Shown: positions 976 through 3,593 of the stretch, piece by piece | Numbering within the stretch: the stretch's first letter is position 1 | How the letters are laid out: each line of letters opens with the position of its first letter | Source of the DNA: an uncultured archaeon | GTDB lineage: Archaea > Asgardarchaeota > Lokiarchaeia > Sigyniarchaeales > SOKP01 | Length of the DNA stretch: 35,712 bases | Reading direction: 5' to 3' | NCBI GenBank assembly: GCA_964583985.1 | Contig: CAZOYD010000036.1 | Location: 1 to 35,712, forward strand | The notes under the pieces: model-generated | Database searches by the model: none | What the model was told of the DNA's origin: nothing | What the model saw: only the letters and a program-made list of their open reading frames with translations | Translations under genes and position numbers: made by a program

Positions 976-1087
976 GATTCATCTGGTAAAATAAAGAATG
1001 TTTCTGTATGTTGAATAGTTATTATTGATACCTTAAAAAAATTATTACTAAAATAGAGAAATTTAAAGTTAGAAAAATTATTAGCAC

Positions 1088-1279
1088 TTTAACCACAAAA
1101 AAGTCCAGATCGTAGCGAGACCGGGTATTTTCCTTGGAGACCATGACCGTAAGCGAGCTTACAGTTTGAAAGTTCCCACAAATTGAAATTGAAGTACTAT
1201 TTTCAACGTCAACAAGTTTAACTTCCGGGTTCGGATGGTTCCGGCGCCATGCGAAGCGCGTGGAAATTTTGTGGTTAAA
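1088..1279. repeat. 13-bp perfect inverted repeat bracketing the permuted 5S unit
   Basis: tttaaccacaaaa (1088-1100) and ttttgtggttaaa (1267-1279) are exact reverse complements. Confidence 0.85.
1116..1236 (-). rRNA. 5S rRNA(-like) gene in circularly permuted order (3' part 1236-1157, then 5' part 1154-1116)
   Basis: The minus strand reads AUCCGAACCCGGAAGUUAAACUUGUUGACGUUGAAAAUAGUACUUC...GUGGGAACUUUCAAACUGUAAGC-UC-GCUUACGGUCAUGGUCUCCAAGGAAAAUACCCGGUCUCG. It contains the 5S hallmarks CCGAAC, GGAAGUUAA and loop E UAGUAC/GGGAA. Helices I, II (two mismatches), III, IV and V can be drawn, and the two parts sum to about 119 nt. Confidence 0.8.
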
Positions 1280-1296
1280 ATTACCACCTCTAACCA

Positions 1297-1310
1297 TTTA
1301 TTAAGCTTGG
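1297..1310 (-). promoter_or_regulatory. Candidate TATA box for the 5S-like transcript
   Basis: Minus-strand TTAATAAA (1304-1297) would place a start near the distal inverted-repeat arm (about 1275-1280). The AT-rich background makes this weak. Confidence 0.3.
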
Positions 1311-1454: not shown

Positions 1455-3593
1455 TCATTCCCTAAAATCCTTTTTTTTTATACTGATGAAATTTGATAAA
1501 CTTAAGAGTCCAGCAAGACCAATTATCATGATTAGAGTAAAAATTAAAACATATTCAGTCAGAGGTGCAGCTATGCTAAAATTAAATGCATTATCGTAAT
1601 ATAATCGTGTCTTGTTGTTAAAATCTCTAATAACAACGGCGTAATCATATTCTCCTGGGTCCAATTTATTTAAGGTAAGAGTAAAGTTTTGAGCATTTTC
1701 AAGAATTCCATTTGAAACTTGAAAAGATTCAAAGCTCTTGAAATTATTTTGACTAAGAAGAAGAGTGATGCTTTCTACTCCCGATTGGTTATCATATCCT
1801 TCAAAATTAAATTGAATTTGATCATTAATTGTGGGATCAGTAGGATAGCATTCAATATTTCTCAATTCAGGAAGATAGGAATCTTCGGTTGTGTTGAAGT
1901 TAAAATGAGAAGGAATTAAATTATGACCCGTAATTGTCACATTGTATTTTTCATTTGCTTGAGCAGGTAAACGGAATTTTACTAATCCCTCTTTATTAGC
2001 ATAAGTAGTGAAATATTTACCATCCAATGAAGTAAGGTGTACTCTAGCATTTGGTACAATTTGTCCTTTATTATCGATGACAGAGAAAGAAACAAGTTGT
2101 CCCTCATAAATGGGTGAGCTAAAGTAATTGGGTACGGAAACAGGAATATCTGTATATATATCTACTTCTGGATCTCCCAATAAATCATACGTTAAGATAT
2201 TTTTTCTTTGCCATTCTAAGTCAATTGATGTTTCTCCCCTTTGAAAGTAATCACTATTTAAATATGCAACTTTGGAGTTGTATAATGCTTTTCCTTGTTG
2301 AAAATCCATTTCCTCAAAAAATTGTTTCCAAAATAATTTTGCATTCCCTCGATTTAATTTTTCTAAATAAGTGTCGTTATCTAAATACCATGTAACTCGA
2401 AGTCCACCAATATAACCTATTGCACCCGCATCTAATCGTTTGATCGATCTTTCTCCAATACTAAAATCTCCCTGATCATAAGAAGAAGTAGTGCACGCGT
2501 CAGCATATATTAATGAAGGCATGTTAATATTAGAACTTGAAAGGGCATCAGTATTAGAGTAATACGTGACACCACTATCATCGGTTATTACAGTAGGATC
2601 AGCATGACCAGCAATAATAATTGTTGAATATCCGTTATCTACACCAGTAATAAAGGAAGTGCCATTTAAATCATCTAAAATATTTGGTTCTGGGGGAATG
2701 GAAGCTGTAAAACTTGTGGTGGTCTTGACCAGATGCGTGAAATTCATGTTATTTAGAACATAATTTTGCCAAATGTATTCTGTTAAGCGTGCTTCATCTT
2801 CATCAGGGTCTAGATAAGAGGCATAAGAAGAAACCCCTCCTGCTAATAACATCTGATTCATCCATGTCCCTATTTCAGGATTATTCTCGTATTTTATAGT
2901 TTTGTTAACCATTATTTGAAGTTCATGAGCGTTACTGGCTGGTAATCTTCCTACATAAACATCTGGGCTCCAAATAATTTCATCAATACCATTCCCATTG
3001 TTTTCTGAGTTTTCTCCCCACTTCCCATCACCATCATCATCCCAAGTACCAGCAAGTGCACTATAATAAAAATCGGTTGGCTTGTAATACTCATTCCAGT
3101 TTGAATATTCCGAGTCTCCAACCACTACAGTATCTGGATTATAGGTGTATCTGATTGGAATTAAGTCTTCTTCAGCATCACCAGCAAGTAAGACCCATTG
3201 GATATTTTCATTTTCGTAATAATCTTTTATCATGTTTCTGATCTTCTCTGCGTTATCAGATCCTGTATATTCAGTGAAATTGCTCAATATAATAGTTTTT
3301 ACCCCTTTCTGATTTTTCCATTCCATCAATGGGATCAACTCATTGATAAAACTAGCGTTATTGGGAGCAATAATTATCATTTCTAATTTAGCGTTATACC
3401 ACTCATTATAAAGCGCTTCAAAATTCGAGGATGGTATTGATGCTATATCAATACTAAGTGAATCATCATCCAGATCTATTCTACTAGATGAAATAGGTAT
3501 TTCTGTTGTATGCATGATTGAAGTGAGAACTGGTAAAAAAATAAATATGAGAAAAAGAACTTGAATTACACGATTAATTTCAATTCTATCCAT
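1455..3593 (-). CDS. Peptidase C25 (gingipain-like) cysteine protease, exported and C-terminally membrane anchored
   Basis: WKNQKG, WVLLAGD, TDFYYS, VYVGRLP, candidate catalytic dyad AGH...ADAC, and YDLLGDP. N-terminal hydrophobic signal, Ig-like C-terminal domains and a final TM helix with basic tail. Confidence 0.88.
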   Translation of the reverse strand: MDRIEINRVIQVLFLIFIFLPVLTSIMHTTEIPISSSRIDLDDDSLSIDIASIPSSNFEALYNEWYNAKLEMIIIAPNNASFINELIPLMEWKNQKGVKTIILSNFTEYTGSDNAEKIRNMIKDYYENENIQWVLLAGDAEEDLIPIRYTYNPDTVVVGDSEYSNWNEYYKPTDFYYSALAGTWDDDGDGKWGENSENNGNGIDEIIWSPDVYVGRLPASNAHELQIMVNKTIKYENNPEIGTWMNQMLLAGGVSSYASYLDPDEDEARLTEYIWQNYVLNNMNFTHLVKTTTSFTASIPPEPNILDDLNGTSFITGVDNGYSTIIIAGHADPTVITDDSGVTYYSNTDALSSSNINMPSLIYADACTTSSYDQGDFSIGERSIKRLDAGAIGYIGGLRVTWYLDNDTYLEKLNRGNAKLFWKQFFEEMDFQQGKALYNSKVAYLNSDYFQRGETSIDLEWQRKNILTYDLLGDPEVDIYTDIPVSVPNYFSSPIYEGQLVSFSVIDNKGQIVPNARVHLTSLDGKYFTTYANKEGLVKFRLPAQANEKYNVTITGHNLIPSHFNFNTTEDSYLPELRNIECYPTDPTINDQIQFNFEGYDNQSGVESITLLLSQNNFKSFESFQVSNGILENAQNFTLTLNKLDPGEYDYAVVIRDFNNKTRLYYDNAFNFSIAAPLTEYVLIFTLIMIIGLAGLLSLSNFISIKKKDFRE

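What the first reader, a model, noticed from the sequence alone, without database searches (positions are those of the whole stretch)
1116..1236. Circularly permuted 5S rRNA gene
Seen: the minus strand first encodes the 3' ~80 nt of a 5S rRNA (loop C half AUCCGAAC, CCGGAAGUUAA, helix V UUGAAA/UUUCAA, loop E UAGUAC/GGGAA, terminal CUGUAAGC). After only UC comes the 5' ~39 nt (GCUUACGGUCAU...AUACCCGGUCUCG). The normal termini are thus joined as the hairpin CUGUAAG-CUCG-CUUACGG, with a YNMG-type tetraloop. Helix II (GUCUCCAAG/CUUGUUGAC, two mismatches) and helix III (ACCCGG/CCGG-AA-GU) form only between the swapped halves, and the total of about 119 nt is normal 5S size. Known: permuted tRNA genes (Thermofilum), permuted SRP RNA restored by circularisation (Thermoproteus) and permuted mitochondrial 5S rRNAs (brown algae) exist; I know of no permuted chromosomal 5S gene in a prokaryote. 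Inference: the product is either ligated at loop C into a circular 5S, or works with new ends at loop C, or is a 5S mimic that titrates uL5/uL18. Linear models would report only a partial hit.
Basis: partly seen in the sequence, partly recalled or inferred. Interest (0 to 1): 0.93.

Follow-up and report, generated by a model that had tools for sequence, protein, structure and literature searches.

The report
Back-to-front 5S rRNA gene, ring-forming
This Lokiarchaeia-type (Asgard) archaeon writes its only 5S ribosomal RNA gene with the back part before the front part, between cut signals of the tRNA-splicing enzyme. A normal 5S can therefore arise only by cutting the transcript and rejoining it, most likely into a closed 120-base ring.

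Summary
On the minus strand, 1238->1119 holds a complete 5S rRNA in circularly permuted order. Loop C, helix III 3', helix II 3' and helices V/IV come first. Helix I follows as a hairpin capped by CUCG, then helix II 5' and helix III 5'.

Rfam's 5S model scores the native locus at 20.2 bits (cut-off 38). The 100%-complete genome has no other 5S match. A profile of canonical archaeal 5S matches the reordered sequence end to end, but matches the native sequence as two pieces in swapped order.

Leader and trailer form a long stem that ends in a relaxed bulge-helix-bulge motif. Cutting after the second bulge base on each strand and joining the ends gives exactly the canonical loop C.

The layout is in 112 of 125 genomes sampled from the same family and in four further families of the class. 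Compensatory changes support both the 5S fold and the processing stem. The genome encodes an alpha/beta-type splicing endonuclease and RtcB.

I found no RNA evidence and no publication. This scan has already reported the same thing on other genomes. New here is that the cut point differs between close relatives.

The parts
1296..1304 (-). TATA-like box (UUAAUAAAU) about 16 nt upstream of the outer stem; probable archaeal promoter of the 5S transcript
   Evidence: Read. The block CTTAWNWAATGG is conserved at this position in the aligned relatives (columns 2-13). Its function is inferred.
1267..1280 (-). 5' arm of the outer processing stem (UUUUAACCACAAAA)
   Evidence: Pairs with 1100-1087. In 23 class II precursors the 14 pairs are 90% paired and 7 pairs show changes on both sides (helix 1). 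The stem is also in the minimum-energy fold.
1245..1249 (-). Outer helix h of the splice motif, 5' strand (UGGCG)
   Evidence: Pairs with CGCUA at 1117-1113. The three pairs next to the central helix are 100% paired in alignment A1, 2 of 3 with double changes (helix 3). Across 58 precursors there are 7 pair-triplet types, and 56 of 58 are fully paired.
1241..1244 (-). Central 4-bp helix, leader strand (CCGG). It is a decoy copy of the helix III 3' strand. Next come A1240 and A1239, then the predicted cut at 1239|1238
   Evidence: Pairs with CCGG at 1124-1121. 100% paired in A1 (helix 4). It changes to CUGG/CCAG and CUGG/UCAG in relatives.
1119..1238 (-). The 5S rRNA itself (120 nt) in permuted order: ring positions 37-120, then 1-36
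   Evidence: full-length match after reordering; canonical helices I-V 94.2% paired, 17 pairs with double changes.
1146..1165 (-). Helix I as a closed hairpin: 3' strand 1165-1158, loop CUCG 1157-1154, 5' strand 1153-1146
   Evidence: Eight pairs, 100% paired, 3 with double changes. The loop is always 4 nt and fits YNNG in 50 distinct loci: UUCG 20, UUAG 13, UUUG 10, UACG 3, CUCG 3, UAUG 1.
1121..1124 (-). Helix III 5' strand (CCGG). It doubles as the trailer-side strand of the central helix. Next come U1120 and C1119, then the predicted cut at 1119|1118; U1118 completes the 3-nt bulge UCU
   Evidence: In the precursor this strand can pair either with the decoy (1244-1241) or with the true helix III 3' strand (1228-1225).
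1113..1117 (-). Outer helix h, 3' strand (CGCUA)
1087..1100 (-). 3' arm of the outer processing stem (UUUUGUGGUUAAAG)

Best explanation
This is the organism's functional, and only, 5S rRNA gene, written in circularly permuted order.

Proposed pathway:
1. The primary transcript starts shortly before 1280. It folds so that leader and trailer form about 30 bp of stem: outer stem, UCCA/UGGA, then UGGCG/CGCUA.
2. The stem ends in a relaxed bulge-helix-bulge (bulge-helix-loop) motif. Its 4-bp central helix is a decoy CCGG in the leader paired with the true helix III 5' strand.
3. The splicing endonuclease, which here looks like an alpha/beta pair, cuts after the second unpaired base on each strand, at 1239|1238 and 1119|1118.
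4. RtcB joins the 2',3'-cyclic phosphate end to the 5'-OH end.
5. The join ...CCCGGUC-CCAUCCGAAC... recreates loop C. Helix III then forms with the true 3' strand.

The product is a canonical 5S fold whose normal termini are permanently closed by a CUCG tetraloop, that is, a 120-nt covalently closed ring.

Shown here: the permuted order, the fold and the motif, each with covariation; the exact restoration of the canonical sequence in silico; and the presence of the enzymes.

Inferred: cleavage, ligation, and persistence of the ring in ribosomes.
For: (1) Sole 5S.
- RF00001 finds only this locus in G000, at 20.2 bits; the genome is 100% complete.
- In the family, 2 of 130 genomes have a hit over the cut-off, and both are bacterial-type 5S on foreign-looking contigs.
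- The single-contig genomes G101 and G103 have only the permuted locus.

(2) Reordering restores a full-length 5S.
- Profile HMM: 55.5 bits over positions 3-114 after reordering, against split, swapped hits in the native sequence.
- The joined 31-nt stretch across the junction is identical to contiguous canonical 5S genes of other archaea.

(3) Fold across the swapped halves.
- 39 canonical pairs are 94.2% paired, against 33-43% when the partners are slid. 17 pairs show double changes.
- In a more diverse set the covariation score is 0.443 against 0.176 for shuffles.

(4) Splice motif.
- In 58 distinct precursors the helix h is fully paired in 56, with 7 compensatory types (GCG/CGC, ACG/CGU, CGC/GCG, AGA/UUU, AAA/UUU, CGU/ACG, ACA/UGU). 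Its pairing is not imposed by the extraction patterns.
- The central helix is 4/4 paired in 57 of 58. This is only partly independent, because my extraction patterns restrict both of its strands.
- The processing stem is 94.0% paired, with 10 pairs showing double changes.

(5) The cut rule is calibrated independently.
- Introns of 30-31 nt in relatives, at three sites in the gene, sit in BHB motifs of the same geometry, read by eye.
- Removing them by the same rule restores the intron-free sequence of relatives.
- All 38 reconstructed rings are 119-122 nt, whatever the break class or intron content.
- In G129 only the 'after base 2' register gives the conserved GAAGUU.

(6) Enzymes in the own genome.
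- EndA with a crenarchaeal-type catalytic subunit (best PDB match 3p1z_B).
- A second paralogue that lacks the Tyr and His aligned to the catalytic residues of 1a79.
- RtcB.

(7) The cap on helix I is always 4 nt and fits YNNG. This suits a permanent tetraloop, not a spacer to be trimmed.
Against: - I could obtain no RNA data. Two scans of metagenome contigs for the joined sequence found no RNA-derived contig.
- In this window the motif is relaxed. The leader-side 'bulge' AAC is followed by unpaired sequence, so there is no inner helix h'.
- The motif-bearing fold is 2.3 kcal/mol above the minimum-energy fold of leader plus trailer. In the relatives G023, G014 and G018 it is the minimum-energy fold.
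- A T6 run lies just before the 3' arm of the outer stem and could terminate some transcripts.
- Single-sequence folding of the AT-rich ring does not recover helices II and III. They rest on comparative evidence.
Confidence: 0.8

Rival explanations
1. The transcript is cut at the same two sites but not ligated. The ribosome then uses a linear, permuted 5S with its ends in loop C, held together by helices II and III.
For: The brown-algal mitochondrial 5S is permuted in the final product without ligation (PMC4267664). Nothing in the DNA proves ligation.
Against: - EndA products are the natural substrates of RtcB, and RtcB is present.
- Relatives carry BHB introns inside the same gene, which require ligation anyway.
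- Two different break points (33 class I and 25 class II precursors) give the same joined sequence. This is expected if the joined form is what selection sees.
- Loop C is a conserved protein- and rRNA-contact loop, and a nick there would be costly (general knowledge).
Confidence: 0.1
2. The ring is only an intermediate. It is re-opened at the helix I tetraloop to give a conventional linear 5S, as in permuted tRNAs of Cyanidioschyzon or circular pre-16S/23S.
For: Circular pre-16S and pre-23S are usually re-linearised (PMC12918454). Permuted tRNAs are matured from a circular intermediate (cited in PMC4267664).
Against: - The cap is invariably 4 nt and fits YNNG, and UUCG is the commonest. That is the signature of a structural tetraloop.
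- There is no spacer and no known nuclease motif.
- In the closest precedent, the Thermoproteus SRP RNA, the circle is the functional form (PMC4731332).
Confidence: 0.08
3. The locus is not a working gene: a pseudogene, a retro-copy of a circular RNA, a 5S mimic or an assembly artefact.
For: The RF00001 score is below the cut-off. A mechanical ORF, 1022-1297 on the minus strand, overlaps the locus.
Against: - It is single-copy and conserved, with compensatory changes, across 112 of 125 family genomes and further families.
- No alternative 5S exists.
- The layout appears in 58 independent assemblies, including the closed genomes G101 and G103.
- The ORF has no Pfam match, and 1-nt length differences among homologues break its frame.
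Confidence: 0.02

Closest known systems
Permuted, circularised SRP RNA of Thermoproteus tenax (Plagens et al. 2015, eLife, PMC4731332; abstract read)
   Same: A universal structured ribonucleoprotein RNA whose gene is circularly permuted. Its new termini lie next to a functionally important loop. [quoted passage not shown]
   Different: - Here the RNA is 5S rRNA, not SRP RNA.
- The host is an Asgard class, not Thermoproteales.
- The layout is found across many genera and several families, not in a few species.
- The break point differs between close relatives.
- The same gene also carries BHB introns in some species.
- Circularity is not yet shown here.
[quoted passage not shown]
   Same: A long leader/trailer stem with a BHB-type motif; excision and circularisation of an rRNA.
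   Different: - Those genes are co-linear with the mature RNA, so circularisation is not needed to restore order.
- That paper states that such processing concerns 16S and 23S 'but not 5S rRNAs'.
- Known 5S maturation routes use other nucleases (PMC10515664).
Circularly permuted tRNA genes (Cyanidioschyzon merolae, Soma et al. 2007; archaeal examples from my own knowledge), as cited in PMC4267664
   Same: The 3' half is encoded before the 5' half, a BHB forms from leader and trailer, and a circular RNA is formed by the splicing machinery.
   Different: tRNA circles are re-opened at the acceptor stem by RNase P and tRNase Z. Here the joined native ends form a 4-nt tetraloop with no spacer.
Permuted mitochondrial 5S rRNA of brown algae (Valach et al. 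2014, PMC4267664)
   Same: A 5S rRNA whose domain order departs from the universal one, with helix I replaced or closed by a hairpin.
   Different: - It is organellar.
- Its ends lie at the alpha/gamma junction, not in the beta domain.
- It stays permuted in the final linear RNA.
- It has no BHB motif and no restoration of the canonical sequence.
Circularly permuted 23S rRNA of Pyrococcus and Thermococcus (PMC7758197; bioRxiv 10.64898/2026.03.23.713588; titles and abstracts)
   Same: An archaeal LSU rRNA that passes through a BHB-made circle and ends with non-genomic connectivity.
   Different: There the gene is co-linear and the RNA becomes permuted. Here the gene is permuted and the RNA becomes canonical.

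Membership tests
5S rRNA (Rfam RF00001) | Match to the covariance model at or above the gathering score (38 bits) on the genomic sequence | tested here: not met
   20.2 bits, E 0.094, with low-confidence alignment of the 5' third. This is expected for a permuted gene.
5S rRNA (Rfam RF00001) | Full-length similarity to canonical 5S once the two parts are put in canonical order | tested here: met
   A profile HMM of 9 canonical Lokiarchaeia sequences plus crenarchaeal-type 5S sequences matches positions 3-114 at 55.5 bits after reordering. The native sequence gives split, swapped hits. Infernal itself could not be run on the reordered sequence.
5S rRNA (Rfam RF00001) | Three-way junction with helices I-V, supported by covariation | tested here: met
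   39 pairs are 94.2% paired and 17 have double changes. In the diverse set 33 pairs are 91.6% paired and helix II has 7 of 9 pairs with double changes.
5S rRNA (Rfam RF00001) | Conserved loop C and loop E sequence motifs | tested here: met
   The joined loop C/helix III stretch (31 nt) is identical to contiguous canonical 5S genes on 7 metagenome contigs. AGUAC and GGGAA are invariant in the alignments.
Substrates of the archaeal splicing endonuclease (hBHBh' / relaxed BHL motif) | Central helix of 4 bp | tested here: met
   CCGG 1244-1241 pairs with CCGG 1124-1121. It is 4/4 paired in 57 of 58 precursors, with CCGG/CCGG, CUGG/CCGG, CUGG/CCAG and CUGG/UCAG types. The extraction patterns partly fix these letters.
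Substrates of the archaeal splicing endonuclease (hBHBh' / relaxed BHL motif) | Two 3-nt bulges on opposite strands, each following the central helix | tested here: inconclusive
   The trailer side has a true 3-nt bulge, UCU, between the central helix and h. The leader side has AAC followed by unpaired sequence, so there is no h'. The motif is bulge-helix-loop type, not strict hBHBh'.
Substrates of the archaeal splicing endonuclease (hBHBh' / relaxed BHL motif) | Flanking helix h next to a bulge | tested here: met
   UGGCG/CGCUA in the window. Three pairs are conserved, with 7 compensatory types, and 56 of 58 precursors are fully paired.
Substrates of the archaeal splicing endonuclease (hBHBh' / relaxed BHL motif) | Cleavage by EndA at the predicted phosphodiesters | not testable with these tools
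   Only indirect support: the rule restores canonical sequence here and at three intron sites in relatives. The genome encodes a catalytic EndA and a non-catalytic paralogue.
Permuted RNA genes restored by circularisation (Thermoproteus SRP RNA type) | Gene order 3' part then 5' part, with the native ends joined | tested here: met
Permuted RNA genes restored by circularisation (Thermoproteus SRP RNA type) | Circular RNA product detected | not testable with these tools
   No RNA reads are available. Two metagenome-contig scans for the junction returned nothing RNA-derived. Earlier notes of this scan claim junction RNA from relatives; I did not verify this.
Permuted mitochondrial 5S (mtPerm-5S type) | Ends at the alpha/gamma junction, with the final RNA linear and permuted | tested here: not met
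   The ends fall in the beta domain (loop C or helix III) and are flanked by a splice motif. In one search only the best family of the 5S clan was kept, and it was RF00001.

The most novel reading that the evidence does not exclude
Ribosomes of most Lokiarchaeia carry a covalently circular 5S rRNA.

The gene's break point moves over evolutionary time. Class I and class II occur within single genera, and a third site occurs in another family.

The joined sequence on either side of a new break exists contiguously only in the ligated RNA or in an ancestral canonical gene. Break-point switching may therefore pass through reverse-transcribed ring RNA, or through duplicated copies that decay differentially. 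G108 carries a class I copy beside a degenerate class II-like copy.
Probability: 0.55. Interest if true: 0.93.

Novelty: new variant of a known kind. Interest (0 to 1): 0.88.

Why it matters
5S rRNA is a universal ribosome component and was thought to be encoded co-linearly in all prokaryotes. Recent papers state that archaeal rRNA circularisation concerns 16S and 23S but not 5S.

If this holds, several things follow:
- A whole major Asgard lineage, relatives of the eukaryotic ancestor, depends on the tRNA-splicing machinery to make a ribosomal RNA.
- Its ribosomes would contain a circular 5S.
- Standard annotation (Rfam, and MAG quality rules that ask for a 5S gene) systematically reports these genomes as lacking 5S.

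It also gives a natural system for asking how far BHB splicing has spread beyond tRNA in Asgard archaea, and how permuted RNA genes arise and move their break points.

Tried and rejected
- **Reordered sequence with Rfam cmscan.** Not possible: the tool reads only the window or loci, and Infernal is not in the script box. I used a profile HMM and pair counts instead.
- **Search for processed RNA in metagenome contigs.** A strict junction pattern found nothing. A relaxed one found 7 long genomic contigs with canonical 5S genes of other archaea.
- **Single-sequence folding.** The circular minimum-energy fold recovers helices I and V/IV but not II and III (z = -1.6). For this window the splice-motif fold is 2.3 kcal/mol above the minimum-energy fold.
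- **Canonical 5S hits in G015 and G071.** Checked and dismissed as bacterial-type sequences (GUGAAA-type helix III region) on contigs of higher GC.
- **ORF 1022-1297 (minus strand) as a protein gene.** Rejected: no Pfam match, and length variation among homologues breaks the frame.
- **G030 hit at 28.6 bits.** It looked like a degenerate fragment and was not pursued.
- **Mimic or decoy reading.** Rejected because no other 5S exists.

Full report
**What is in the sequence.**

Read on the minus strand, the stretch 1238->1119 holds all parts of a 5S rRNA, but in rotated order:
- It begins inside loop C (CCAUCCGAAC).
- It runs through the helix III 3' strand, AAGUUAAAC, the helix II 3' strand, helix V, loop E and helix IV.
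- It reaches the normal 3' end (…ACUGUAAG) and turns through the four bases CUCG.
- It continues with the normal 5' end (CUUACGGUCAU…), the helix II 5' strand and the helix III 5' strand (…ACCCGGUC).

Rfam's 5S model scores the native locus at only 20.2 bits, against a cut-off of 38. It finds nothing else in the whole 3.8-Mb, 100%-complete assembly.

**Reordering test.**

Infernal could not be run on a rearranged sequence. Instead I built a profile HMM from nine canonical 5S genes of the sister family plus crenarchaeal-type canonical genes.
- The in-silico reordered RNA matches profile positions 3-114 in one piece, at 55.5 bits.
- The native precursor gives two pieces in swapped order: positions 29-114 first (38.9 bits), then 3-34 (0.1 bits).

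The 31 bases that straddle the proposed join are letter for letter the same as contiguous canonical 5S genes on seven unrelated archaeal contigs.

**The flanks are a splice signal.**

Upstream and downstream sequences pair in three steps:
- an outer stem, 1280-1267 with 1100-1087;
- UCCA/UGGA;
- UGGCG (1249-1245) with CGCUA (1117-1113).

Next to this lies a 4-bp helix between a leader CCGG (1244-1241) and the helix III 5' strand CCGG (1124-1121). On the trailer strand a 3-nt bulge, UCU, separates the two helices. On the leader strand AAC follows the helix.

This has the geometry of an archaeal bulge-helix-bulge motif in its relaxed, bulge-helix-loop form. Cutting after the second unpaired base on each strand (1239|1238 and 1119|1118) and joining the ends gives …CCCGGUC-CCAUCCGAAC…. 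That is the canonical loop C, and it is exactly the sequence that close relatives encode contiguously.

The motif-bearing fold is 2.3 kcal/mol above the minimum-energy fold for this window. It is the minimum-energy fold in G023, G014 and G018.

**Comparative support.**

The organism belongs to Promethearchaeota/Promethearchaeia, formerly Lokiarchaeia. This is inferred from the record titles of 29 contigs that share the helix I junction pattern; records of the window's own genome may be left out of that list.

I extracted 58 distinct precursors from genomes of the same family.
- Helix h next to the bulge is fully paired in 56 of 58 and shows seven compensatory types.
- The central helix is fully paired in 57 of 58. 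This is only partly independent, because my extraction patterns constrain those letters.

On 23 precursors with the same break point as the window:
- The processing structure is 94.0% paired, with 10 pairs changed on both sides. With the partners slid it is 34-45% paired.
- The canonical 5S pairs that span the swapped halves are 94.2% paired, with 17 such pairs.

On a more diverse core alignment:
- Helix II, which can form only between the swapped halves, has 7 of 9 pairs with double changes.
- The covariation score is 0.443 against 0.176 for shuffles.

**Independent calibration of the cut rule.**

Several relatives carry 30-31-nt inserts inside the gene, at three sites:
- in the helix IV loop (G013, G021);
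- at another helix IV position (G061, G103);
- in loop C (G006, G022, G020, G009, G005, G016).

Each insert sits in a BHB motif of the same geometry, as I read the folds by eye. Removing each by the same rule restores the intron-free sequence of relatives.

All 38 reconstructed RNAs are 119-122 nt.

**Two break points, and more.**

Two break classes occur in the family:
- In 33 precursors the gene is broken 3' of helix III (…CCRGAA|GUUAAAC…). I call this class I.
- In 25, including this window, it is broken 5' of loop C. I call this class II.

Both classes occur within the window's genus and within genus g12.

The window's ring is 96% identical to those of G006 and G022, which are class I with a loop C intron. 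It is only 92% identical to that of G023, which is class II.

In both classes the central helix mimics helix III. A leader decoy pairs with one true helix III strand.

A genome of another family (G025) is broken between helices II and III. Genomes of other families in the class are broken class I-like, with their own central helices; I worked out one of them, G156, by eye.

**Distribution.**

A covariance model of the break-independent core (R1) gave these hits:

| Family | Genomes with a full-length hit |
|---|---|
| f1 (the window's family) | 112 of 125, one hit each with two exceptions (G083, G108) |
| f2 | 0 of 13 |
| f3 | 1 of 1 |
| f4 | 2 of 3 |
| f5 | 1 of 2 |
| f6 | 2 of 3 |
| f7 | 0 of 2 |

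Conversely, RF00001 passes its cut-off in 12 of 14 f2 genomes but in only 2 of 130 f1 genomes. Those two are bacterial-type contaminants.

Judged from genome sizes, f2 contains the closed genomes of the cultured strains. That would explain why the arrangement has gone unnoticed.

**Enzymes.**

The own genome encodes three relevant proteins:
- RtcB (556.9 bits).
- An EndA paralogue that best matches the catalytic subunit of crenarchaeal heterotetramers (3p1z_B, E 1e-36).
- A second EndA paralogue that has Phe and Ser where M. jannaschii EndA, in the alignment to 1a79, has the Tyr and His I recall as catalytic.

From established knowledge, alpha/beta heterotetrameric endonucleases accept relaxed motifs at non-canonical positions. 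This fits the bulge-helix-loop form seen here.

**Ring or re-opened?**

The cap on helix I is always four bases and fits YNNG, with UUCG the commonest, in 50 distinct loci. The three loop-proximal pairs are always formed. This looks like a permanent tetraloop rather than a spacer, so I favour a stable 120-nt ring, as in the Thermoproteus SRP RNA (PMC4731332). This step is inferred.

**Context.**

The locus sits alone in a 480-bp gap. On one side is an unannotated 181-aa ORF, and on the other a Peptidase_C25 protein. There are no tRNA or other rRNA genes in the window.

**Literature and earlier notes.**

Six full-text searches found no report of a permuted or circular 5S rRNA in archaea or bacteria. 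A 2026 paper states that circularisation concerns 16S and 23S 'but not 5S rRNAs'.

This scan's own notebook already holds several reports of the same phenomenon on other genomes. Two of them claim environmental RNA with the joined sequence. I formed the BHB reading before seeing them (note), and I could not reproduce the RNA evidence.

Noticed in passing
L051/L052 (G013, G021), L104 (G061), L099 (G103), L033/L034 (G006, G022), L041/L043/L044/L050 (G020, G009, G005, G016): BHB-type mini-introns of 30-31 nt inside the 5S gene of relatives, at three different sites (two in helix IV, one in loop C). I do not know of published introns in a 5S rRNA gene. Removing them by the bulge rule restores the intron-free sequence of relatives.
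   Followed up: partly
L140 (G108:C109) about 160-330 and 930-1060: One genome carries a class I copy with a loop C intron. About 700 nt away lies a second, class II-like copy with an intact helix I and 5' half, but its upstream part is degenerate or heavily interrupted. It may be a decaying duplicate, which bears on how break points switch.
   Followed up: partly
L012 (G025:C63, minus strand) about 1400-1590: A GC-richer genome of another family has the 5S broken at a third site, between helices II and III. Its motif is CCGA/UCGG with AAA bulges and a GCCCGC/GCG(C)GGC outer helix.
   Followed up: partly
L011 (G015:C263) and L105 (G071:C68): The only 'canonical' 5S hits in family f1 are bacterial-type 5S genes on contigs of higher GC. 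They are probably bin contamination.
   Followed up: yes
window 1455-3593 (-): A 712-aa protein with a Peptidase_C25 (gingipain-type) domain and weak, sub-threshold Ig-like and carboxypeptidase-regulatory-like matches lies directly upstream of the 5S locus.
   Followed up: no
window 1097-1102 (-): A T6 run lies inside the transcript, just before the 3' arm of the outer stem. It is conserved as a T-rich run in relatives. It pairs with the A-run of the 5' arm but could also act as an archaeal terminator.
   Followed up: no
own genome, other contigs (notes): First-stage notes report many BHB-type mini-introns in protein-coding genes of this same genome (uL11, EF-1alpha, RNase HII, gyrB and others). 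I did not check them. If they are real, the 5S case is part of a much expanded splicing system.
   Followed up: no
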